The notes: generated from the sequence alone by a model not told the origin. A stretch of 64,000 nucleotides of DNA from an uncultured archaeon (GCA_964373255.1 CAYJTG010000005.1:10638-74637), one strand, 5' to 3'. Counted from the stretch's first letter, positions 22,525 through 63,509 are shown. A program made the numbers and translations.

Positions 22525-22655
22525 GCTCTGTAGAAATGCTCGATAAAGAGCATCGACGTAGACCTATACGTCTCTTGACGTATAGGTCAGCTAGAGATAT
22601 CATCGATAGATGATATCTCTCACGTCGATGCTCTTGCATAGGTTTTCTACAGAGC
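22525..22655. mobile_element. Family-A MITE-like element, diverged copy A4
   Basis: Same architecture as A1. Both internal hairpins carry compensatory substitutions that keep perfect pairing. Confidence 0.65.
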
Positions 22656-26079: not shown

Positions 26080-26121
26080 ATAATTAAATAAATTAAATAT
26101 TTGATTTTGGGAGGTAGTTGC

Positions 26122-29100
26122 ATGGCAAAAATAACAAAAGTTCGAAAAAGAGACGGAAGAATTGTAAATTTTGGCAAAGACAAGATAACAAACGCTATAT
26201 TCAAGGCCGTCCAGGCAGTAGGCGGGTCTGACAAAACTATAGCAGAAAGCCTTGCAAATCAGGTCATGGAAATTCTGGAAAAGAATATGCCACCGGGCGC
26301 TATTCCAAACATAGAGGATATACAGGATATTGTCGAGAGGGTTCTGATAGAATCCGGCCATGCAAAGACAGCAAAGGCCTACATACTTTACAGGAATGAG
26401 CACGCCAGAGTAAGGGAAGAGCAGAAAAGAATATTAGGCGGCAAAACAACAAAGCTCCCCTTCAGCATGAATGCCCTGCAGGTTCTTGCAAAGCGCTACC
26501 TTGTAAGAAACAGGGACGGTAATGTTATTGAATCGCCTGATGATATGTTCGAGAGGGTTGCTGATTCTTTGGCAAGCGTGGAGTACGAGTATGGAAAAAC
26601 AAACGAGGAAGTCGAAAAATTTTCCCAGCAGTTCAATGAAATCATGGCAAGTTTTGAGTTCATACCAGCTGGGCGCACAATGACAAACGCGGGCTCGCCG
26701 ACCCCTATAGTGCCTAATTGCATAGTCCTTCATATTGGCGACAACATGGATAACATATTTCAGACACTTAAAGAAGCCTCGCTTCTTCAGCAGGCAGGCT
26801 CTGGGTTGGGATTTCCGTTCCACCTGCTAAGGCCGGCCGGCACCGTTGCAAAGCGCTCCCGTGGGGTAGCCTCCGGTCCGGTCTCTTTCCTGCGCGTTTA
26901 CAATAATGCATTCGGCGTGATAAAACAGCAAAACAGGCACGGCGCGAACATGGGCGTTATGCGCGTCGACCATCCGGATATACTTGAATTCATACACGCA
27001 AAGGACGTCGAGGGCGAGATAAGGAACTTCAACATCTCCGTTGCAATTACAGATGAATTCATGCAGAAGGCACGCGACAACGATTCAACGCCTTGGATAT
27101 GCGAGTGGAACGGCGAAAAGATGAAGCCAAGGCGCGTTTACAGGGATTCAAACGGCATTGTTCTCGACATCAAGGAGGAGACAATGACGGCAAAAGAAAT
27201 CTTCATGGAAATTGTGTCGTCGGCATGGCAGACCGGCGAACCTGGAATAATCTTCATCGACAAAATAAATGATACAAATCCGTTGCCCGGTCTTGGTCGA
27301 ATAGAGGCGTGTAATCCTTGTGTGACCGGCGATACATTAGTAAGCACGGAACACGGAATGATGAAAATATCTGATTTGGCAGAGAAACATGGAAAAGGTG
27401 GCGTATCTGTAATTTGTGACAATAGGATGCCTATAACAATATATGAATCTGATGGAACCAAAGTCCTGATATACAAAGGCACAAAAGGCACACAAATCAA
27501 TAACGTGAGTGCTGCATGGAAATCTGGCTTCAAAGATGTATTGAAAATTGAAACAGAATCGGGGTACGAGCTTGAAGCCACAGCAGATCATAAGATAATG
27601 ACAACAAAAGGATGGATAGATGTCGAAAACCTTACAAAAGAACACGAAATTCTTATTCAATCAGGAGAAGGAAGATTCTCTGTAAACAACCAAATTCCAT
27701 TTGAAGTGCAGAATGAATTTATTGGAGAAAATGGCAGAACTTATAAATATAATTTTCCTCGTCAATGGAACAGGGAATTGGGGCAACTTCTTGGCTGGAT
27801 CGTAGGTGATGGCTGGATAAGAGACAAGGAAAAGGAGTGCGATAAAGAAATAATGACACATATAAAGTCGATAGGAAACATGATTTATGGCTCTGAAAAA
27901 CGAGAAATTGAAAGAATAAGAAATACACACCATCTCAATTATGGTTCACGACGCTTTGTAGAATACCTTATGAAGCTTGGGCTCAAGACAACAGGCGCAG
28001 AAAATAAAGAAGTACCAAAGAGCATTTTCACAGCACCAAAAGACGCTGTATCAGGCTTCCTTCAAGGTTTGTTTTCATCAGATGGCACAGTAATGCTAGA
28101 CGAAAAACATGGCAACTATTATATAAGATTGACAACGAAATCGATAAAACTTGCAAAACAGGTTCAGACACTTCTTCTGAACTTCGGAATTAAGTCAAGA
28201 ATATACGACAGGAGCAGGCCGCCAAAAAAGAACCTATTTACGTATGAAACAAAATCAGGAGAAAAAAGAACTTATGCATCTGACGGAATTCTGTTTGAAG
28301 TGCATGTACATGGCGATACAATAATAAAATTTAATGAACAAATAGGATTTCTATGCAGTAAAAATAAAGAGAAAATAGAAAAGATACTGAAAAAGAATCT
28401 AAGAGACGATAAATTTACAGACAAAGTAAAATATGTCGAGTACATTGGCAAGAAAGATGTCTACGATCTCACAGAACCAGCGACGCACTCTTTCATAGCA
28501 AATGGTATTGTGGTATCAAATTGTGGTGAGCAATTTCTCCACGACGGCGATGTCTGCAATCTTGGTTCGATAAATCTGGAAAAATTTGTAAAAGATGGCA
28601 AAATAGATTTTGATCGATTAAGGCATGTCACACGTTTAGCTGTGCGTATGCTTGACAACGTTGTCGATATCACAGCAGCGCCTGCCGACCGTGTCAATCA
28701 CATGTTCCGCGCAAACCGCAGGGTCGGTTTGGGCATAATGGGCTTTGCGGATATGCTCTATCAACTGAAGATAGGTTATAATGCAGAAGAGGGCGCAAAG
28801 ACAGCAGAAAAGGTCATGAACTGCATTCAAGAATCTGCCCACCAAATGTCGCAAGAGCTTGCTGAGGAGAAAGGCGTGTTTCCAAACTGGGAGAAGAGCG
28901 TATTTGCAAAGAAAGGTATAAAGATGCGAAACGCCGCGCTCACAAACATCGCCCCGACAGGAACTATATCCATGGTCTTCGACGTTTCCGGGGGCGTAGA
29001 ACCTTATTTTGCCTTGGCTTACCACTACCAGGGAATTCTGGGGGGCGCAACCCAGCTCTACTACGTCAACAAGCACCTGAGAAAGACACTGGAAGAGTAT

Positions 29101-29589
29101 GGTTTATACAACGATGTAATAATGAAGCGCATATTTGAGGAAGGAACGCTGCAGCGTATAGAAGAAATCCCTGATGATTTGAAGCGTGTGTTTGTCACGG
29201 CCATGGATATTTCATCCGACGACCACATACGGGTGCAGGCGGCTTTCCAGAAATACGTTGACAACAGCATATCAAAGACGTGCAACTTCCCTGAGGACGC
29301 TACAAAAGAGGACGTCTTTCAGGGATATCTGCTCGCCTGGCAGCTCGGCTGCAAGAGCTGCACCGTGTACAGAAACAACTCACGCAGGCTGCAAGTGCTG
29401 AATCTTAACAAGCAGAAACAGGAGGAAGTTCAGGAAGAGGAGTACGAGCCGCAGCAGCAGAAGATAGCGGTCGCAGCCACAAACGGTTCTACACATTACA
29501 CGACGTGTCCAGAGTGTGACACCGTGCTGGAGCAAAAAGAAGGGTGTTCTTCTTGCCCTCAGTGCGGCTGGGGATTGTGCAGCGTGTAA
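26122..29589 (+). CDS. nrdJ: Class II (B12-dependent) ribonucleotide reductase NrdJ, with N-terminal ATP cone, one intein, and C-terminal Zn ribbon
   Basis: ATP cone [21 protein letters not shown]. Catalytic motif NP|CGEQ split by the intein. C-terminal CPECD...CPQCG. GGAGGT 7 nt upstream of ATG 26122. Extein ~760 aa. Confidence 0.85.
27319..28521 (+). mobile_element. Intein (401 aa) with LAGLIDADG homing-endonuclease domain, inserted before the catalytic Cys of the RNR NPCGE motif
   Basis: N-extein ...EACNP | [11 protein letters not shown] (Cys1, block A) ... [11 protein letters not shown] and [12 protein letters not shown] (two LAGLIDADG-type motifs) ... IANGIVVSN | CGEQF (terminal Asn, +1 Cys). 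Confidence 0.8.
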
Positions 29590-34980: not shown

Positions 34981-35167
34981 GCTCTGTAGAAAACCTATGC
35001 AAGAGCATCGACGTGAGAGCTATTATCTTCTAAGATAACAAAGTTATCTTGAAGATTCAGGTTGACTTTGTCAACCATGAATCTGTCGATAATAGCTCTA
35101 GCTGACCTATACGTCAAGAGACGTATAGGTCTACGTCGATGCTCTTTATCGTGCATTTCTACAGAGC
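34981..35167. mobile_element. Family-A MITE-like element, copy A5 with inverted core plus a 70-bp insert
   Basis: Same TIRs and cgtcgatgc inverted repeats as A1. Internal hairpin pair is in reverse-complement order relative to A1/A2/A3. Also carries an extra insert ttctaagataacaaagttatcttgaa... Confidence 0.65.
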
Positions 35168-51087: not shown

Positions 51088-51642
51088 TTACCTTTCCCTC
51101 TTCTTCTTTTTTTTATCCTTCTCTATCCAGTCCAGCGACCCAAGCAGCGGCTGCCTCATTGTAAGCGATATCTTGCTCCGGCCCTTTCCCAGAGAGACGC
51201 CAACAATGCGCGCCCTCACGAGGTCGCCCTCTTTCAGTCTGTATCCTGATTTCTTTCCTGTGAATATGGAATTTTTTGCATCGTAAGCAATCTTGTCGTC
51301 CATTATCTGGCTTACATGGATCAGCGCGTCCAGCGGCCCGACTCTTGTGAATGCGCCAAATTCCGTGATATCGACTACCTCGCCAAGTACAATCTCGTTG
51401 AGTTCAGGTCTGTAGGCGAGTATCTTGAATTCGACAGGATAATAAATTGCGCCATCCTCGGGAATTATTTTTCCCTCACCGACCTTAAGAACTTCGGTCA
51501 CCGCCAGAAAAACTCCTACGTCAGGATTCAGTTTTCCCTCGATCTGCTCCTGAAGAGATTCTTTGACAGACTGCCCCAATTCAAGGTCAAACTTCGTCGG
51601 CGGCACGCGCACTTCGTCCTTAACCGTCAGTATTTTGAACAT
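51088..51642 (-). CDS. rpoE: RNA polymerase subunit E' (Rpo7/RpoE), S1 domain
   Basis: MFKILTVKDEVRVPP...N-terminal domain then S1 fold (GEVVDITEFGAFTRVGPLDALIHVSQI). 184 aa with Lys-rich tail. Confidence 0.8.
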   Translation of the reverse strand: MFKILTVKDEVRVPPTKFDLELGQSVKESLQEQIEGKLNPDVGVFLAVTEVLKVGEGKIIPEDGAIYYPVEFKILAYRPELNEIVLGEVVDITEFGAFTRVGPLDALIHVSQIMDDKIAYDAKNSIFTGKKSGYRLKEGDLVRARIVGVSLGKGRSKISLTMRQPLLGSLDWIEKDKKKKKRER

Positions 51643-51653
51643 TCTAAATCACT

Positions 51654-51761
51654 CTACATTAAGGGAAACCCAGGTTTCCCTTATAACACGCAAAGAACCA
51701 AAGGTTCTTTGGTGCACCAGAAAGCTTTGCTTTCTGTGTGTCTAGACTTAATCCCTTCCTG
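51654..51761 (+). repeat. Family-H hairpin-string element, copy H2, immediately upstream of rpoE
   Basis: cattaagggaaacccaggtttccctta / aaagaaccaaaggttcttt / cagaaagctttgctttctg / tctagacttaatcccttcctg. Confidence 0.6.
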
Positions 51762-52016
51762 AAATTTTTGCTTAAGCTTTTTTAAAAAAGCTTACTAGAC
51801 TTGCCTTCCCTCACTTGCCTGTTTGTTCTCATGAGTAGTTAGAAATTTTAAAATCATGAAGAACATATCTTTCTTGAGAGTAAGAGGTTTTAAAGCTTTC
51901 TTTCATCGGTATTGAAAAATTAACATTCCACCATTTTTCTACAGTATCTCCGAAAGTTGGATTACTGCCTCTTTGCAGTAATCCTCTACCGAGGTATATG
52001 CCACAAGGCGTATACC

Positions 52017-52307
52017 TCACTTTCGGAGATACTCTTCTATGTAGAACAGTACTTTGTTGGGATCGACAGGCCCATAGGACATTTTGTGCTTGTGATTTTC
52101 AAAGACCGATAACATGTAATCCCCCGGTTTGATACTTTGCACTATATCTGTTCTTTCTTTAGGGACAAATATGCCATTGAATTCATCGTGGCAAACAATT
52201 TCATAACAACCAGGAAAATCAGAAGGTTCTTCTATGTGTGATACTTTCCTGACTCTAGTATGAAGACCATTTTCAATAAGCTTGTCTGTAGTTTGAACCT
52301 GTAGCAT
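52017..52307 (-). CDS. Hypothetical protein, 96 aa
   Basis: No motif. Confidence 0.25.
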   Translation of the reverse strand: MLQVQTTDKLIENGLHTRVRKVSHIEEPSDFPGCYEIVCHDEFNGIFVPKERTDIVQSIKPGDYMLSVFENHKHKMSYGPVDPNKVLFYIEEYLRK

Positions 52308-52546
52308 CGAATAAACCCGATTCCAACTATCATAGAAAACTTTTTAAAGACGTTTCTGTTTTTTGTTCTGTATGTTAAGTTAATGTGATCCAAATAAATA
52401 ATCGTGATACTAAATTTGGATCACAGTACATAGCGAAACAAAGTTTCGCTTGTACAGGTAAAGCTTTGCTTTACCATGTACTGTGCACAAGGAATGTAAT
52501 ATACCGATTCATTCCTTGTAGCACATTAAAAGAAAACAGAGCCCGT

Positions 52547-54595
52547 CTAGATAAACAGCGGTGCCAGAACTAATGTGATAGTCGCCAAAAGTTTTATCAA
52601 TACGTGGAGAGATGGGCCGGCCGTGTCCTTTAAAGGGTCGCCGACCGTGTCGCCGACAACAGCCGCCTTGTGCGCTTCGCTTCCCTTGCCGCCAAGGGCG
52701 CCTGCCTCTATGAATTTCTTGGCATTGTCCCAGGCTCCGCCGCCATTGTTCATCACGATTGCAAGCAGTACGCCCGCTATCGTGCCCACCATCAGCAACG
52801 CCGCGACAGCTTCCGCTTTCAGCACGACACCAACGACTATAGGGAATACAATCACAAGAACGCCGGGAAGAATCATGTTTTTTAGCGCGCCCTTTGCCGT
52901 TATGTCAACGCATATAGCATAGTTGGGCTTTTTCTTGCCCGACATTATGGCCTTGTCCTTGAACTGCCTTCTCACCTCTTCTATAATATAAGATGCAGTT
53001 TTTCCTACAGCCCTTATTGCTAATGAACTAAACAAAAACACCAGCATAGCGCCGAGCATTGCGCCTATGAAGACAGGCACCTTTGCTATGTCGACAACCG
53101 CAAACGTCTTGCCCGTCAGTACTGCTATCTCGTCCATGTAAGCCGCGAAAAGCAGGAACGCCGCCAGTGCCGCCGAGCCTATCGCATAGCCTTTTGTAAG
53201 CGCCTTTGTTGTGTTGCCTACGGCATCCAGTCTGTCTGTATTTTTTCTTATCGACGCAGGCGCGTTTGACATCTCAACAATGCCGCCGGCGTTGTCTGTT
53301 ATAGGGCCAAACGTGTCCATGGAAAGTATGTAGGCAGCGGTTGCGAGCATACCCATGGTTGCTATCGCCGTTCCATAAAGTCCGCCGTTAGGCACGCCGG
53401 ACATTATTCCAAAATTGTAAGACAAAAATAATGCGCCTGAAATAACTAAGACGGGCAACGCCGTATTTTCCAGCGCCACAGAGAACCCTGTTATTATATT
53501 TGTAGCAGGACCCGTCTTCGACGCGTCTACGATGCTCTTTACAGGCCTGTACCTGTATTCTGTATAGTACTGTGTGATGAAAACAAATAGCACGCTCATT
53601 ACCAGACCTACAAGGCCTGCGTAGAAGAACCATATATTGTTAAGCATGCTCATCGTTGCGTAGTAGAACATTATCGCCGCCAGTATAGTTGTTATGTAAT
53701 ACCCGCGGTTAAGCGCCTTCATAGGGTCCTCGTCGCCACGCGCCTTTGCAAAAATTATTCCGACTATTGATGCAATCAGACCAAAAGATCTAGCAACTAA
53801 TGGAAATAGTATACCATTAACGCCGAAGACAGGATAGAGCGCAACGCCGAGTATCATCGCACCTATATTTTCGGCGGCTGTGCTCTCAAACAGGTCCGCA
53901 CCACGGCCCGCACAGTCGCCAACGTTGTCGCCCACAAGGTCGGCAATAACAGCAGGATTTCTTGGGTCGTCTTCTGGTATCCCCTTTTCCACCTTCCCGA
54001 CGAGATCTGCACCAACGTCAGCGGCCTTTGTGTAAATACCGCCGCCCAGCTGTGCAAACAGCGCTACAAACGACGCCCCGAACGCGTAGCCGACAATCAT
54101 GAATGGCGTTTTTTGCGGATCAGCTCCAAATGCATAGTAAACGCCCGCGACGCCAATAAGAGAAAGCGCAACGACAAATATGCCCGAAACAGCCCCGCCA
54201 AGCATGGCAATTCTCATCGCCCTCGCCGTCGAATGCTGGGCAGCCGCCGCGGTCCTGATGTTTGAGCGCACAGAGATAGACATCCCTATTATCCCTGCGA
54301 TGGCTGAGCAAAGTGCGCCAAGAAGAAAGGCTACGGATGTATGTGTAGCGTAGTCCCATTTGCCTACATAAGAATAGACACCAAAAATTATTGCAGCTGT
54401 TATGACAGACAGTATTCCTATTGTTTTGTATTGTCGCTTGATGAAGGCCTCCGCGCCCTCGCGTATGTGATCTGATATTTCCTGCATCTTTGCGCTGCCC
54501 TTGTCCTGCTTCAGAACGTACCACGCAAAGCAGACAGCAACAATTATAGAAATTAAGCTTATCCCAAAGACGATTTCAAGCAACACGACCACCAT
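52547..54595 (-). CDS. hppA: Membrane-bound proton/sodium-translocating pyrophosphatase
   Basis: GGGIYTKAADVGADLVGKVE, DNVGDNVGD, ~16 TM. 682 aa, canonical H+-PPase. Confidence 0.9.
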   Translation of the reverse strand: MVVVLLEIVFGISLISIIVAVCFAWYVLKQDKGSAKMQEISDHIREGAEAFIKRQYKTIGILSVITAAIIFGVYSYVGKWDYATHTSVAFLLGALCSAIAGIIGMSISVRSNIRTAAAAQHSTARAMRIAMLGGAVSGIFVVALSLIGVAGVYYAFGADPQKTPFMIVGYAFGASFVALFAQLGGGIYTKAADVGADLVGKVEKGIPEDDPRNPAVIADLVGDNVGDCAGRGADLFESTAAENIGAMILGVALYPVFGVNGILFPLVARSFGLIASIVGIIFAKARGDEDPMKALNRGYYITTILAAIMFYYATMSMLNNIWFFYAGLVGLVMSVLFVFITQYYTEYRYRPVKSIVDASKTGPATNIITGFSVALENTALPVLVISGALFLSYNFGIMSGVPNGGLYGTAIATMGMLATAAYILSMDTFGPITDNAGGIVEMSNAPASIRKNTDRLDAVGNTTKALTKGYAIGSAALAAFLLFAAYMDEIAVLTGKTFAVVDIAKVPVFIGAMLGAMLVFLFSSLAIRAVGKTASYIIEEVRRQFKDKAIMSGKKKPNYAICVDITAKGALKNMILPGVLVIVFPIVVGVVLKAEAVAALLMVGTIAGVLLAIVMNNGGGAWDNAKKFIEAGALGGKGSEAHKAAVVGDTVGDPLKDTAGPSLHVLIKLLATITLVLAPLFI

Positions 54596-54601
54596 TCAAT
54601 T

Positions 54602-54961
54602 CTATTCTTCCGTAAGATACCTTTTTTGTTTTAATCTTATAATTCTGATGCCGTTCTTTTTTAAAGCTTTAATAAGCGCCTTGTCGTTAGTTCCGACGAT
54701 GCACTTTTCTTTCATGGCATAATTTAAAATTGCCTTGTCGGCTCTTTCTTCGGAGTTTATTATTTCAATCTTATTTTGTTCTATCAGTCTTAGCGCTATT
54801 TTTGCAGATACCGAATCCTTGCCTTTCTGCCTGCCTATTTTCTTCAGCTCATCAACGCACGAAGACAAGGTGCAGACCTCATGGTATTTCAGGTACTCAA
54901 AAATATCGATGCCAAACTGGTTCGGCAGCATGAGAAAATTCGTGTCAAGAAGGGCTTTCAT
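54602..54961 (-). CDS. PIN-domain protein (small VapC/Fcf1-like nuclease)
   Basis: MKALLDTNFLM (D near the N-terminus)...CIVGTNDKAL (T.D) pattern of PIN domains. 119 aa. Confidence 0.5.
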   Translation of the reverse strand: MKALLDTNFLMLPNQFGIDIFEYLKYHEVCTLSSCVDELKKIGRQKGKDSVSAKIALRLIEQNKIEIINSEERADKAILNYAMKEKCIVGTNDKALIKALKKNGIRIIRLKQKRYLTEE

Positions 54962-55078
54962 AGTAAGAAATTGTAAGCAGCGAATTTAAATTCGACAATC
55001 TTTTTGGTAAATCTGCCATTTCTTCTAGGAGTGTTTGCATGTTTCAGGTTTTAAATATCTAATTTTCATAGGATTGCC

Positions 55079-55510
55079 ATGAATTACTGGACAAATGCAT
55101 TGTTCTCGGGATTAATTCTGCTGAACGGCTGCAGCCTTTTCAGGTATTTCACGGATGAGAGCATAGACCTGAAACCTAAAGAAATATTATACGTCGACGT
55201 CGACGGCGATTACAAGTCCGACCTACGCGTGGTAGGCTTTGATAGCAACCACGATGAAAAAACAGAATCAGTCTGCTACTTCCCTATAATGAAAGAAGAC
55301 GGGGTCGAAGGGGAAATATCCCTTAATTTGCCTATATTCATCAAAGACCTTGACAAAGACGGCTACGTGACGCGAGTACGCATGCTTGACACCGATTCCA
55401 AATCAATCAGATACGTAGAAATAGGGGAAATTACGCTGGACATAATGAGAAACTGGTACCCGGAAGTACTCAGTACAAATCAATGCGAAATAAAAGATGA
55501 AATAAAGTAA
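55079..55510 (+). CDS. Putative lipoprotein, unknown function
   Basis: N-terminal ALFSGLILLNGCSLF has a lipobox-like LNGC. 143 aa. Confidence 0.3.
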   Translation: MNYWTNALFSGLILLNGCSLFRYFTDESIDLKPKEILYVDVDGDYKSDLRVVGFDSNHDEKTESVCYFPIMKEDGVEGEISLNLPIFIKDLDKDGYVTRVRMLDTDSKSIRYVEIGEITLDIMRNWYPEVLSTNQCEIKDEIK

Positions 55511-55554
55511 AAAAATAAGAAATCACAAATTCTGTTGAATAATTTTTCTGCGTT

Positions 55555-55977
55555 TTAATCTTCGTCGCTTTCTTTTTCTGATCCTTCTGAAGAATCTTCT
55601 TCCTGAGTCTCTTCTGATTCAGAGCTCGATTCTTTCTGCTCTGCCTCTTCTGTCTGTTCTGATGCGCCAACCTTGTCGGCTATAGCGAACTTGTTTGCAA
55701 CTTCTCTTATCCTTATTCTGCACTGTTCGCCCTTCTTTCCGCCGTTGACGAAGACGACAAAATTTTCAACCTTCGTTATTCCGTCGCCTTTCGAACCGAT
55801 GTCTGTTATGGTTACGTCGTACTCTTCTCCTATTTTTATGGGCTTTGGCCTGTCAAATCTGTCATGCCCGAATCCGCCGCCTCCACCGCCGTAGCCACCG
55901 CCTCCACCGCCGTAGCCACCGCCGCCTCCACCGCCGCGACGATCTCTTCCGAATCCGCCTCTTCCTCTTCTTTCCAT
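55555..55977 (-). CDS. TRAM-domain protein with N-terminal RGG/GGY low-complexity region and acidic C-terminal tail
   Basis: MERRGRGGFGRDRRGGGGGGGYGGGGGGYGGGGGGFG. TRAM-like beta barrel (KIGEEYDVTITDIGSKGDGITKVENFVVFVNGGKKGEQCRIRIREVANKFAIA). E/S/D-rich tail. Confidence 0.6.
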   Translation of the reverse strand: MERRGRGGFGRDRRGGGGGGGYGGGGGGYGGGGGGFGHDRFDRPKPIKIGEEYDVTITDIGSKGDGITKVENFVVFVNGGKKGEQCRIRIREVANKFAIADKVGASEQTEEAEQKESSSESEETQEEDSSEGSEKESDED

Positions 55978-56263
55978 TCTTCAACACCTTCTATTTTTTA
56001 TTAGGGCGATACATAAGTCGGTCTAGTTGTTTGTTGATTGAGCAAAGACCGTCTTTCGTATTCAATACCCCTTTATATTTTCGTTAGAAACAGGACCTCA
56101 ATGAAGCTCTAGTAAAAGCGAAAAATCGCCCCGACTTCTTAACTAAAGCCAAAAACCCTGAATTCCGGGTTCCTTCTGCCTTACTTCCCTTCACTTACTT
56201 CCTTTCCCTAACAGTACTAATTATTGATAAAAGATAAGTATTTAAAAAGGATAAATCGGAGGG

Positions 56264-56351
56264 GCACTGTCAACTTAAGGGTGGTTAGCTGTTGCTAACC
56301 ACCCAGAAAAGGCTGTTGCCGATAGGCAACAGCCGTTAAGTTGACAGTGCC
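56264..56351. mobile_element. Family-Z TIR element, compact canonical copy Z3 (88 bp)
   Basis: ggcactgtcaacttaag / gggtggttagc-tgtt-gctaaccaccc / agaaaa / ggctgttgcc-gatag-gcaacagcc / gttaagttgacagtgcc. Two perfect hairpins inside perfect 16-bp TIRs. Confidence 0.7.
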
Positions 56352-56422
56352 ATCGGAGGCAAACTTGTTTTTACTTGTCTTTTCTTGAGAATTTCTTACT
56401 TGATTTTCTTTCTTAAAGAAAA

Positions 56423-57058
56423 TCACTTGAAAATCTCGCCCGTTTCCTCGCTCCACCAGACAAGATCTAAGTGAGCAAATGGTATCCCAATGGAATTTGC
56501 AAATTCCTTCATCTTCTGCTCGATTTCTAAATATTTCTTTTCTGTCAACGATTTTGGGATTTCTAAAATAACGCCATATTTTACCAGGTTTTTCAATATG
56601 TGGCGGTCTAAAATGGCAATGTCATCGCCAAATCCCACATTCCTCAGAAAATGGCTCGCCTCTTTCATGCCAATACCTTTGACATTCTTAATCAGCCATT
56701 CTCGTAGGGCAAATACGTTAGGCAGGGCGTTCATTTTGTCTTTTACTTTCAATTCGTCATTATTCGTGAACAATTGCCTTGCCCGTTCCAGATATTTAGA
56801 CTTGTTTTCATTGAACCTCACAGACGCCATCCATTTCTTCATTTCATTTGATGAGCCGTTATACAATAATCCAGTTTCCTTCAATTTCTCGATCGTGCGC
56901 CAGCACGACTTTGCCTTGCTCTGCGGCGTCAGCAGGCAAAAACAGAGCTCGCCAAATACGTGCCTGTCGTCCTGCTGAAAATTATCGCGGAAATCTTCGA
57001 GGCGGGCTTCTATCGCCTGTTTTTTTTGTTCATATTTCTGTTTTAATTCGGATATCAT
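56423..57058 (-). CDS. 8-oxoguanine DNA glycosylase/AP lyase, archaeal Ogg2-like (HhH-GPD)
   Basis: HhH-GPD motif VKGIGMKEASHFLRNVGFGDDIAILDRHI (helix-hairpin-helix, Gly-rich loop, catalytic Asp). 211 aa. Confidence 0.6.
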   Translation of the reverse strand: MISELKQKYEQKKQAIEARLEDFRDNFQQDDRHVFGELCFCLLTPQSKAKSCWRTIEKLKETGLLYNGSSNEMKKWMASVRFNENKSKYLERARQLFTNNDELKVKDKMNALPNVFALREWLIKNVKGIGMKEASHFLRNVGFGDDIAILDRHILKNLVKYGVILEIPKSLTEKKYLEIEQKMKEFANSIGIPFAHLDLVWWSEETGEIFK

Positions 57059-63377: not shown

Positions 63378-63509
63378 GCTCTGTTGAAAACCTATGAAAA
63401 AGCATCGACGTAGACCCTTACGTCTTATCTACGTAAGGGTCAGCTAGAGCTATCATCAACAGACGATAGCTCTCACGTCGATGCTTTTTGTTGAGCATTT
63501 CTACAGAGC
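63378..63509. mobile_element. Family-A MITE-like element, copy A3
   Basis: Near-identical to A1 over the first 75 bp; right hairpin variant (ctatcatc-aaca-gacgatag); right TIR tttctacagagc. Confidence 0.75.

What the first reader, a model, noticed from the sequence alone, without database searches (positions are those of the whole stretch)
55555..55977. TRAM-domain protein with a eukaryote-like RGG/GGY low-complexity N-terminus and acidic tail
Archaeal stand-alone TRAM proteins are small RNA chaperones. This one adds a 37-residue N-terminus of almost pure Gly with interspersed Arg and Tyr/Phe. It is encoded by near-perfect 24-bp tandem repeats (ggtggctacggcggtggaggcggt at 55880-55960, minus strand). 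It also has a 40-residue Glu/Ser/Asp-rich tail. RGG/GGY tracts flanking an RNA-binding fold are typical of eukaryotic phase-separating RNA-binding proteins and unusual in archaea. The tandem DNA repeat also makes the tract prone to length variation.
Basis: seen in the sequence. Interest (0 to 1): 0.55.

Follow-up and report, generated by a model that had tools for sequence, protein, structure and literature searches.

The report
TRAM RNA chaperone with charged tails
This is a real gene for a small archaeal RNA-binding (TRAM) protein with a floppy glycine/arginine-rich head and an acidic tail, but hundreds of archaeal relatives share that three-part layout, so it is a conserved and so far unstudied variant of a known RNA chaperone rather than a one-off oddity.

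Summary
ORF 55555-55977(-) encodes 140 aa in three parts. Residues 1-45 are a Gly/Arg/aromatic tract (24 G, 8 R). Residues 46-103 are a TRAM beta-barrel (Pfam E 2e-12; model matches PDB 1YEZ/1YVC at about 1 A). Residues 104-140 are a Glu/Ser tail (net -15).

Corrections: the DNA repeat has a 21-bp unit, not 24 bp. There are two exact units at 55879-55920. The tail is 37 residues.

The layout is not special to this gene. 115 of the 120 best homologues carry both tails. Arg/Gly-rich heads on TRAM also occur in Thaumarchaeota, Bathyarchaeia, Micrarchaeota and Nanoarchaeota. Tail composition is conserved, but sequence and length turn over fast. This protein does not meet the strict RGG-motif definition (di-RG only).

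Best reading: a stand-alone TRAM RNA chaperone. Its basic head probably adds non-specific RNA affinity. Its acidic tail probably competes with RNA and speeds release, as in bacterial Hfq. Phase separation is possible but untested.

No paper describing this architecture was found. I rate it a new variant of a known kind, of moderate interest.

Side finding: a conserved ~240-nt leader with a 5' hairpin lies upstream of the gene.

The parts
55555..55977 (-). Complete CDS, 140 aa plus TAA stop (55555-55557)
   Evidence: An identical protein is on record (P0001). Identical DNA occurs in two other assemblies.
55843..55977 (-). N-terminal disordered Gly/Arg/aromatic tract, residues 1-45 (MERRGRGGFGRDRRG7YG6YG6FGHDRFDRPK). 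pI 11.2, net +5.
   Evidence: Composition. AF2 pLDDT 42-52. Family-wide composition is G 43%, R 18%, F 10%. pI.
55879..55920 (-). Two exact 21-bp tandem units (GGTGGCTACGGCGGTGGAGGC, encoding GGYGGGG). This is a recent in-frame duplication inside the Gly tract.
   Evidence: Relatives carry different repeat units and periods.
55669..55842 (-). TRAM domain, residues 46-103: a five-stranded beta-barrel
   Evidence: Pfam PF01938, E 2.3e-12. PDB 1yez E 2.6e-14 and 1yvc E 1.1e-12. AF2 pLDDT above 90. Foldseek TM 0.84 and 0.80, rmsd 1.2 and 0.9 A.
55558..55668 (-). C-terminal disordered acidic Glu/Ser tail, residues 104-140. pI 4.05, net -15.
   Evidence: Family-wide composition is E 39%, S 20%, with median net charge -15.
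55985..55990 (-). Shine-Dalgarno-like AAGGTG, 7 nt before the ATG
   Evidence: Read directly from the sequence. Conserved as AGAAGGTGTT in relatives.
56080..56215 (-). Conserved 5' leader hairpin domain. GUUAGGGAAAGGA..AGUGAAG pairs with CUUCAUU..UCCUGUUUCUAAC around a variable insert.
   Evidence: Alignment. MFE fold. Covariance model R1 finds it upstream of TRAM in 3 non-seed loci. 96.8% of cells are paired against 31-65% in slid registers, but only one pair shows a double change.
56239..56246 (-). Archaeal TATA-like box TTTAAATA, about 23 nt before the start of the leader hairpin. This implies a 5'UTR of about 240 nt (inferred; no transcript data).
   Evidence: The sequence [CT]TTAAATA is conserved at the same place in relatives.
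55509..55515 (-). T7 tract about 40 nt after the stop codon. Possible archaeal oligo-U terminator (inferred).
   Evidence: Read directly from the sequence. Not tested.

Best explanation
The gene encodes a stand-alone TRAM-fold RNA chaperone of a DPANN (Aenigmarchaeota-like) archaeon. It belongs to a large, previously uncharacterised subfamily in which the roughly 58-aa RNA-binding barrel is flanked by two conserved disordered tails of opposite charge.

Shown: the domain, the fold, the predicted disorder, and the conservation of tail composition.

Inferred mechanism:
1. The barrel binds and melts RNA through its conserved aromatic and basic face, as in TRAM0076.
2. The Arg/Gly/aromatic head adds non-specific, multivalent RNA contacts. 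These raise affinity and favour annealing and strand exchange.
3. The polyanionic Glu/Ser tail acts as an intramolecular nucleic-acid mimic. It competes with RNA for the basic head and barrel face. This keeps the protein soluble, limits indiscriminate binding and speeds RNA release, so the chaperone can recycle.

The tails evolve by replication slippage under selection for composition and charge, not for sequence.
For: TRAM identity and fold:
- Sequence matches. Structure model and fold search.
- Residues shown to be essential for RNA unfolding in TRAM0076 are R35, F39, F42, F63 and K62 (PMC6705878). Via the alignment they map to K69, F73, F76, F97 and K96. F73, F76 and F97 are invariant in alignment A1.

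Conservation of the tails:
- 115 of 120 homologues have both tails. The N tail is G 43%, R 18%, F 10%, median net +5. The C tail is E 39%, S 20%, median net -15.
- The architecture spans several archaeal phyla.
- Tails change length in 83% of pairs with identical cores. Each lineage has its own repeat unit. So composition is what selection keeps.
- In about 0.8 Mb of archaeal flanking DNA, 33 of the 35 ORFs with a Gly/Arg-rich stretch are the TRAM genes themselves. The tract is therefore gene-specific and not a proteome bias.

Charge relationship:
- The count of N-tail basic residues correlates with the count of C-tail acidic residues (rho 0.28, p 8e-7, n=311). Tail lengths do not correlate (rho 0.07).

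Precedents for the mechanism:
- The acidic C-terminal tail of Hfq mimics nucleic acid and autoregulates RNA binding and release (PMC5606850).
- Acinetobacter Hfq combines GGFGGQ repeats with an acidic tip, and both are needed for function (PMC11617691).

Context:
- The gene sits in a conserved neighbourhood with Rpo7, Spt4 and a PIN_9 nuclease.
Against: - There are no experimental data for any tailed TRAM protein.
- The whole protein is net acidic (-9, pI 4.8), which is unusual for an RNA binder.
- TRAM0076's essential F65 is Ile (I99) throughout this subfamily.
- The NCBIfam PyTRAM equivalog score is 79.4, below its cutoff of 85.
- Charge segregation measured as kappa does not differ from shuffles (0.19 against 0.16, z 0.8).
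- The N/C charge correlation is weak and not corrected for phylogeny.
- Thaumarchaeal relatives keep the basic head but have short, weakly acidic tails. The two tails are therefore not obligatorily coupled.
- This protein's residues 15-37 lack Arg altogether.
Confidence: 0.5

Rival explanations
1. Condensate scaffold. The Gly/Arg/aromatic head (stickers) and the acidic tail drive RNA-dependent or self-complementary phase separation, giving archaeal RNP granules. Chaperoning would be secondary. This does not exclude the best explanation.
For: - The head has the sticker-and-spacer composition of Gly/Arg/aromatic tracts. 44 of 115 homologues meet di- or tri-RGG definitions.
- The opposite-charge blocks give a negative sequence charge decoration (-2.6 against +0.7 for shuffles).
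- Both tails are predicted disordered.
- GR-rich low-complexity domains are tied to RNA binding across eukaryotes (PMC11132505).
Against: - The tails are short (45 and 37 aa) and the protein has a single folded domain, so valence is low.
- The net charge of -9 disfavours self-coacervation.
- The kappa value is ordinary.
- This protein has only 8 Arg and 5 aromatic residues in its head.
- No LLPS predictor or experiment was available.
Confidence: 0.15
2. Passive low-complexity appendages. The tails are slippage-generated filler that is tolerated, or serves only as a solubility or entropic bristle, on an ordinary TRAM chaperone. They have no specific role in RNA handling.
For: - Indel turnover is rapid and repeat units are lineage-specific.
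- The primary sequence of the tails is not conserved.
- Methanogen TRAMs work without tails (68-70 aa).
Against: - Composition, polarity (basic N tail, acidic C tail) and approximate length are kept in 115 of 120 homologues and across phyla.
- The tract is specific to this gene and not a genome-wide bias.
- Drift would not keep Arg and Phe at 18% and 10%.
Confidence: 0.15
3. A different cellular role for the same fold. It could be a translation or ribosome-associated factor, given the similarity to the TRAM module fused to some aIF2-beta proteins. It could instead be an SSB-like single-stranded DNA binder (an OB-like barrel with an acidic partner-recruiting tail).
For: - NCBIfam aIF2-beta model PRK12336 matches residues 46-102 at E 3.9e-15. 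That TRAM module is thought to have been captured by aIF2-beta (PMC8576121).
- The gene neighbourhood is informational: Rpo7, Spt4 and S24e.
- From my own knowledge, the acidic tail resembles the acidic tip of bacterial SSB.
Against: - The aIF2-beta match covers only the TRAM module. The score is 55.7 bits against a cutoff of 243.
- No aIF2-beta core is present.
- There is no evidence of DNA binding.
- The closest characterised relatives bind RNA (PMC6705878, PMC5572242).
Confidence: 0.1
4. Assembly or annotation artefact. The repeat number is wrong, or the Gly tract is not translated.
For: Tandem repeats can be mis-assembled. No read-level data were available here.
Against: - Three assemblies agree base for base.
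- The repeated stretch is only 42-47 bp.
- An SD site and a conserved MERRG start are present.
- Hundreds of homologues have equivalent in-frame tracts.
Confidence: 0.02

Closest known systems
Stand-alone archaeal TRAM RNA chaperones (M. maripaludis TRAM0076 / PDB 1YVC; M. mazei MM1357 / PDB 1YEZ; Methanolobus psychrophilus cold-shock TRAMs; M. burtonii Ctr3; NCBIfam PyTRAM)
   Same: - Same domain and fold: 44-50% identity over about 60 aa, TM 0.80-0.84.
- Four of the five residues essential for RNA unfolding are kept or conservatively replaced.
- A single TRAM domain with no enzyme attached.
   Different: - These proteins are 68-70 aa with no tails. The window protein is 140 aa, with a 45-aa basic Gly/Arg head and a 37-aa acidic tail.
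- F65 is replaced by Ile.
- The score falls below the PyTRAM equivalog cutoff (79.4 against 85).
Bacterial Hfq with a disordered C-terminal domain, especially Acinetobacter baumannii Hfq (GGFGGQ repeats plus acidic tip) and E. coli or Caulobacter Hfq acidic tips
   Same: An RNA chaperone core, a Gly/aromatic repeat IDR and an acidic terminal segment. In Hfq that segment autoinhibits and recycles the chaperone (PMC11617691, PMC5606850). This is the best functional analogue, and it is prokaryotic.
   Different: - Sm fold and hexamer, as opposed to a TRAM barrel.
- In Hfq both elements lie in one C-terminal tail. Here they are split between the N and C termini.
- The Hfq repeats lack Arg.
- There is no homology.
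Eukaryotic RGG/RG-motif RNA-binding proteins (FUS, hnRNPs, nucleolin and fibrillarin GAR domains)
   Same: A Gly/Arg/aromatic disordered tract next to an RNA-binding fold. 44 of 115 family members meet di- or tri-RGG definitions.
   Different: - This protein is only di-RG. Its residues 15-37 are Gly with 2 Tyr and 1 Phe and contain no Arg.
- The tract is much shorter.
- The adjacent fold is TRAM, not RRM or KH.
- Arg methylation and phase separation are unknown.
- This is analogy, not shown ancestry.
Glycine-rich RNA-binding or cold-shock proteins of plants and cyanobacteria (RRM or CSD plus a Gly-rich tail; from my own knowledge)
   Same: A small nucleic-acid-binding fold plus a GGY/GGR-type Gly-rich tail in stress and cold RNA chaperones.
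   Different: A different fold. The Gly tract is C-terminal. There is no long acidic tail.
TRAM module at the C-terminus of one aIF2-beta paralogue in haloarchaea and methanogens (NCBIfam PRK12336)
   Same: The TRAM sequence is similar: E 3.9e-15 over residues 46-102.
   Different: No aIF2-beta core is present. The score is 55.7 bits against a cutoff of 243.

Membership tests
TRAM domain (Pfam PF01938) | HMM match above the gathering score | tested here: met
   47 bits against a cutoff of 21, E 2.3e-12, residues 48-103
Stand-alone archaeal TRAM RNA chaperone | Five-stranded OB-like beta-barrel that superimposes on 1YVC and 1YEZ | tested here: met
   AF2 core pLDDT above 90 with 5 strands. Foldseek TM 0.84 and 0.80, rmsd 1.2 and 0.9 A. 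This is a predicted model, not a solved structure.
Stand-alone archaeal TRAM RNA chaperone | Residues essential for RNA unfolding in TRAM0076 (R35, F39, F42, F63, F65; K62 partly) | tested here: inconclusive
   They map to K69, F73, F76, F97, I99 and K96. Four of five are kept or conservatively replaced. F65 is Ile in the whole subfamily.
Stand-alone archaeal TRAM RNA chaperone | Single small domain of about 60-70 aa with no appended regions | tested here: not met
   140 aa, of which 82 lie in the two tails
Stand-alone archaeal TRAM RNA chaperone | RNA binding and duplex-unfolding activity | not testable with these tools
   Needs recombinant protein assays
NCBIfam NF053605 PyTRAM (equivalog) | Score at or above the curated cutoff | tested here: not met
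   79.4 bits against a cutoff of 85
RGG/RG-motif proteins (motif definitions of Thandapani et al. 2013, cited in PMC11132505) | Tri-RGG, di-RGG or tri-RG motif with spacers of 0-4 residues | tested here: not met
   The query has only a di-RG motif. Among 115 homologues: 12 tri-RGG, 32 di-RGG, 13 tri-RG, 24 di-RG, 34 none.
RGG/RG-motif proteins | The tract is intrinsically disordered | tested here: met
   pLDDT 42-52 for residues 1-40. This is a prediction only.
RGG/RG-motif proteins | Arg methylation; RNA-dependent phase separation | not testable with these tools
   No PRMT search was done. No LLPS predictor or assay was available.
Acidic-tail autoinhibited RNA chaperones (Hfq-type mechanism) | Disordered C-terminal segment enriched in acidic residues | tested here: met
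   Residues 104-140: 17 of 37 are D or E, net -15, pI 4.05, pLDDT 43-48
Acidic-tail autoinhibited RNA chaperones (Hfq-type mechanism) | The tail contacts the basic RNA-binding surface and competes with nucleic acid | not testable with these tools
   Only indirect support: the N-basic against C-acidic correlation, rho 0.28
Acidic-tail autoinhibited RNA chaperones (Hfq-type mechanism) | Sm/Hfq fold | tested here: not met
   The fold is TRAM. The resemblance is functional analogy only.
aIF2-beta (NCBIfam PRK12336) | Full-length match above the cutoff | tested here: not met
   55.7 bits against a cutoff of 243. Only model positions 145-201 of 203 are matched.

The most novel reading that the evidence does not exclude
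Tailed TRAM proteins would be an ancient, pan-archaeal class (DPANN, Thaumarchaeota, Bathyarchaeia) of Gly/Arg/aromatic-rich RNA-binding proteins. Their oppositely charged tails would make them self-regulating. They could undergo RNA-dependent condensation, which would make them a prokaryotic counterpart of eukaryotic RGG proteins. Expression would be fed back through the conserved structured 5' leader of their own mRNA.
Probability: 0.15. Interest if true: 0.7.

Novelty: new variant of a known kind. Interest (0 to 1): 0.4.

Why it matters
Stand-alone TRAM proteins are the main known archaeal substitute for bacterial cold-shock RNA chaperones. Only tail-less methanogen versions have been studied.

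This analysis shows that a large part of the family carries a conserved basic Gly/Arg/aromatic head. In DPANN it usually also carries a long acidic tail. The tailed forms include the single copy seen in these DPANN loci and paralogues in ammonia-oxidising Thaumarchaeota.

Three consequences follow:
1. Gly/Arg-rich disordered RNA-binding tracts, usually treated as a eukaryotic speciality, would have a conserved and abundant archaeal example.
2. It offers a simple, small system (140 aa) for testing how opposite-charge tails tune an RNA chaperone.
3. Cultivable hosts exist (Nitrosotalea, Nitrososphaera) where a head-only version could be studied.

It does not by itself change any established view.

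Tried and rejected
- Assembly artefact: rejected. Three identical assemblies and a short repeat.
- Lineage-specific oddity: rejected. The layout is family-wide.
- Genome-wide Gly/Arg bias: rejected.
- A tRNA or known RNA family in the long upstream spacer: none found.
- SD-mimic / anti-SD / SD switch or RNA thermometer in the leader: not supported for this window. The 5' hairpin stays closed from 4 to 50 C. The SD site is mostly open at 25 C and above. The pyrimidine strand pairs with the SD region at only -3.9 kcal/mol, against -13.4 with its hairpin partner.
- Metagenome scan with the leader 15-mer CTTCATTGAGGTCCT: only chance hits. None of the loci fetched by that scan (L089 onward) had a TRAM gene downstream. 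That scan was wasted.
- Strong charge patterning: kappa is not different from shuffles.
- Literature: ten full-text searches found no description of Gly/Arg-rich or acid-tailed TRAM proteins. The survey of single-TRAM proteins by Taha et al. 2016 is not held and could not be read, so prior mention there cannot be excluded.
- Window taxonomy was inferred only from best hits and synteny with MAGs labelled Aenigmatarchaeota. No marker-gene search was run.

Full report
**1. What is in the sequence**

The minus-strand ORF 55555..55977 starts with ATG and encodes 140 aa. An AAGGTG site lies 7 nt upstream of the start. The protein has three parts:
- Residues 1-45, MERRGRGGFGRDRRGGGGGGGYGGGGGGYGGGGGGFGHDRFDRPK: 24 Gly, 8 Arg, 3 Phe, 2 Tyr, net +5, pI 11.2.
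- Residues 46-103: of mixed composition, pI 8.5.
- Residues 104-140: 14 Glu, 9 Ser, 3 Asp, net -15, pI 4.05.

The whole protein has pI 4.8 and net charge -9.

The Gly tract has GC 0.65 in a window of GC 0.43. It is the only Gly-rich or strongly acidic stretch among 315 mechanical ORFs in the window.

The DNA repeat is real, but its unit is 21 bp and not 24 bp. Two exact copies of GGTGGCTACGGCGGTGGAGGC (GGYGGGG) sit at 55879-55899 and 55900-55920. TRF reports 55877-55923 with 2.2 copies at 100% match. A looser 12-bp periodicity extends to 55937.

Two independent Logan assemblies from different runs reproduce the window exactly, over 3.8 kb and 3.6 kb that include the gene. The repeat number is therefore not an artefact of one assembly.

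**2. The folded part**

- Pfam TRAM matches residues 48-103 (E 2.3e-12, 47 bits against 21).
- The best solved relatives are the stand-alone TRAM proteins MM1357 (1YEZ, E 2.6e-14) and MMP0076/TRAM0076 (1YVC, E 1.1e-12).
- An AlphaFold2 model built from a 25-sequence alignment gives pLDDT above 90 for residues ~45-105, with five strands. Both tails score below 50.
- The model superimposes on 1YEZ and 1YVC with TM 0.84 and 0.80 and rmsd about 1 A. The next hits are the TRAM domains of RlmCD, RumA, MiaB and RimO.

TRAM0076 is an abundant RNA chaperone. Its duplex-unfolding activity and physiological function depend on R35, F39, F42, F63 and F65, and partly on K62 (PMC6705878). Via the alignment these map to K69, F73, F76, F97, I99 and K96. 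The three Phe residues are invariant in the family alignment. F65 is Ile throughout this subfamily.

The NCBIfam PyTRAM equivalog scores 79.4, just under its cutoff of 85.

**3. The tails are a family trait**

- A search of 5.8 billion proteins returned 219 hits at E up to 1e-5.
- Of the 120 listed, 115 have both an N tail and a C tail of at least 15 aa. The pooled N-tail composition is G 43%, R 18%, F 10%, Y 2%, with median net charge +5. The pooled C-tail composition is E 39%, S 20%, with median net charge -15.
- Named hits are Aenigmarchaeota and Micrarchaeota.
- A scan of GTDB species representatives found at least 561 relatives. The ORFs extracted from the best 80 loci show Arg/Gly/aromatic heads on TRAM in several other groups: Thaumarchaeota (for example Ca. 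Nitrosotalea devanaterra, MSYNDRGSGGYGGRSGGGYGGGGRRFGGGGGGRSF..., and Nitrososphaera), Bathyarchaeia (short heads), Micrarchaeota, and Nanoarchaeota/Woesearchaeota.
- Long acidic tails are mainly a DPANN feature. Thaumarchaeal tails are short and weakly acidic.
- An exhaustive HMMER search of 1.84 billion cluster representatives gave 925 clusters at E up to 1e-3 and 200 at E up to 1e-10. Among the best 150, most single-domain members have basic, Arg/Gly/Phe-containing heads, and about half have acidic tails.
- In roughly 0.8 Mb of flanking archaeal DNA, 33 of the 35 ORFs with a Gly/Arg-rich 20-mer are the TRAM genes themselves.

**4. How the tails evolve**

Among 35 homologue pairs whose 58-aa cores are identical, 83% differ in N-tail length (median 2 aa). 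Tail identity falls much faster than core identity.

Each lineage carries its own tandem DNA unit in the head: 21 bp here, and 33, 27, 24, 21 and 12 bp elsewhere. This fits repeated slippage or duplication under selection for composition.

The window's closest relative (L010) shares the first 20 residues and then uses Phe where this protein has Tyr. Only 5 of 115 heads have more Tyr than Phe. The GGYGGGG duplication is therefore recent and lineage-specific.

No within-population variation was seen in the three assemblies.

**5. Is it an RGG protein?**

By the usual motif definitions this protein is only di-RG. Its two RGG motifs are 5 residues apart, and residues 15-37 have no Arg. Among 115 homologues, 12 are tri-RGG, 32 di-RGG, 13 tri-RG, 24 di-RG and 34 none.

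Gly-rich low-complexity domains are reported to be low in archaea overall, and GR-type domains are tied to RNA binding in eukaryotes (PMC11132505). Against that background this family is a consistent archaeal exception.

'Eukaryote-like' is an analogy, not evidence of shared ancestry.

**6. Mechanism**

Shown: a TRAM barrel with most of the RNA-unfolding residues, two tails predicted to be disordered, conserved opposite charge, and gene-specific conservation of composition.

Inferred:
- The basic, aromatic head adds non-specific multivalent RNA contacts.
- The acidic tail acts as an intramolecular nucleic-acid mimic that limits indiscriminate binding and speeds release.

Prokaryotic precedents support the inference. 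The acidic C-terminal tip of Hfq binds the basic core, competes with RNA and DNA and recycles the chaperone (PMC5606850). Acinetobacter baumannii Hfq combines GGFGGQ repeats with an acidic tip, and both are needed for RNA binding, autoregulation and fitness (PMC11617691).

Weak internal support comes from charge counts. N-tail basic residues correlate with C-tail acidic residues (rho 0.28, p 8e-7, n=311), while tail lengths do not correlate (rho 0.07). This test is not corrected for phylogeny.

Points against or unresolved:
- The protein is net acidic.
- F65 is replaced by Ile.
- The kappa value is ordinary (0.19 against 0.16 for shuffles).
- Thaumarchaeal relatives keep the head without a strong tail.

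Phase separation remains a non-exclusive possibility that I could not test.

**7. Context**

The order Ogg-like glycosylase, TRAM, PIN_9 nuclease, H+-pyrophosphatase, Rpo7 (RpoE'), Spt4 is conserved in relatives, with variable small ORFs in between. The best matches are MAGs labelled Aenigmatarchaeota: Rpo7 78%, Ogg 75%, TRAM core 76-85%. The window most likely comes from that DPANN group.

The gene has its own promoter region. A hairpin followed by a T-run at 56311-56334 follows the upstream Ogg gene.

**8. Conserved leader (side finding)**

The 445-nt spacer upstream of the gene is conserved at the DNA level among close relatives. Its elements, in order, are:
- a TATA-like TTTAAATA at 56239-56246;
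- about 23 nt later, GUUAGGGAAAGGAAGUAAGUGAAGG;
- a variable insert;
- CUUCAUUGAGGUCCUGUUUCUAAC;
- about 90 nt further on, the SD site.

The two conserved blocks pair in the minimum-free-energy fold of every close relative.

A covariance model built from four leaders recovered three further leaders, all directly upstream of TRAM genes (E 1.5e-14 to 2.9e-5). On the seven sequences, 96.8% of cells are paired against 31-65% in slid registers. Most pairs never vary, and only one pair shows a change on both sides. The structure is therefore compatible with the data but not proven by covariation.

More distant Aenigmarchaeota leaders keep a purine-rich strand paired to a (C)UAUUUCU(A)AC-like strand. 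The motifs are unique to this gene within the window, and no Rfam family matches.

A thermometer or anti-SD switch is not supported here. A 5'-terminal stabilising hairpin or an autoregulatory binding site is the more likely role. That is inference only.

**9. Comparison with what is known, and verdict**

The protein is a member of the TRAM domain family. It most plausibly works as a stand-alone TRAM RNA chaperone. It departs from the characterised members by carrying two conserved tails, and it falls just short of the PyTRAM equivalog cutoff.

Functionally the nearest analogue is tailed Hfq, which has a different fold. Eukaryotic RGG proteins and plant or cyanobacterial Gly-rich RNA-binding proteins are looser analogues.

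I found no paper describing Gly/Arg-headed, acid-tailed TRAM proteins in ten full-text searches. The one broad survey of single-TRAM proteins (Taha et al. 2016) could not be read.

Verdict:
- The finding is real.
- It is a new variant of a known kind.
- Interest is moderate (0.4). The main value is that a whole conserved archaeal subfamily of tailed RNA chaperones awaits a simple biochemical test.

Noticed in passing
window 55978-56260 (-): hairpin 56080-56215, TATA 56239-56246: There is a conserved leader of about 240 nt upstream of the TRAM gene. A TATA box is followed by a 5' hairpin domain whose two strands (GUUAGGGAAAGGA..AGUGAAG and CUUCAUU..UCCUGUUUCUAAC) are conserved across Aenigmarchaeota relatives around a variable insert. 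A covariance model finds it only upstream of TRAM genes. Pairing is 96.8% but covariation is weak. No Rfam match. No support for a thermometer or anti-SD switch.
   Followed up: partly
window 51088-57058; loci L003, L083, L086, L088, L035: The gene order is conserved: Ogg-like glycosylase, TRAM, PIN_9 nuclease, H+-pyrophosphatase, Rpo7 (RpoE'), Spt4 (and S24e), with variable small ORFs inserted next to the TRAM gene. In Nitrososphaera loci an Rpo7 homologue lies about 3.5 kb from the TRAM gene.
   Followed up: partly
window 22525-22655 (-), 63378-63509 (+), partial copy ~35085-35167 (+): A palindromic repeat family of about 131 bp. Long outer inverted repeats (GCTCTGTAGAAA...AGCATCGACGT / ACGTCGATGCT...TTTCTACAGAGC) enclose two perfect 12-bp hairpins. 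The hairpin sequences differ between copies but stay palindromic. Fold z-scores are -6.5 to -9.2. The 35-nt right arm occurs 3 times against 0 expected. No Rfam family matches. Each copy sits just upstream of a gene and in the same orientation. It looks like a MITE-like element.
   Followed up: partly
proteins P0122, P0127, P0136, P0139, P0150 and similar: Distant hits include 240-650-aa proteins with a hydrophobic segment near the N terminus (looks like a transmembrane anchor; not run through a predictor) followed by 2-6 tandem TRAM domains. This architecture is quite different from the small cytoplasmic chaperones. Origin and function were not examined.
   Followed up: no
window 56311-56334 (-): A GC-rich 10-bp hairpin (GGCTGTTGCC-TATC-GGCAACAGCC) followed by TTTTCT lies about 90 nt downstream of the Ogg-like gene. 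It is a terminator-like site separating that gene from the TRAM promoter.
   Followed up: no
L083/L084 1-1290; window 26101-29589 (+): The ribonucleotide reductase gene in close relatives carries Pfam hits for an intein (Intein_splicing, LAGLIDADG_3). The window's 1162-aa RNR ORF is of similar length and may carry one too. This was not checked.
   Followed up: no
residue I99 of the protein (window 55681-55683, -): The position equivalent to TRAM0076 F65, which is essential for RNA unfolding there, is Ile in the DPANN subfamily alignment (FAIA motif); the Thaumarchaeal ORFs mostly read Thr at what looks like the same position (FATA), judged by eye. The other aromatic residues are invariant. This may mark a shifted RNA-binding mode.
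   Followed up: partly
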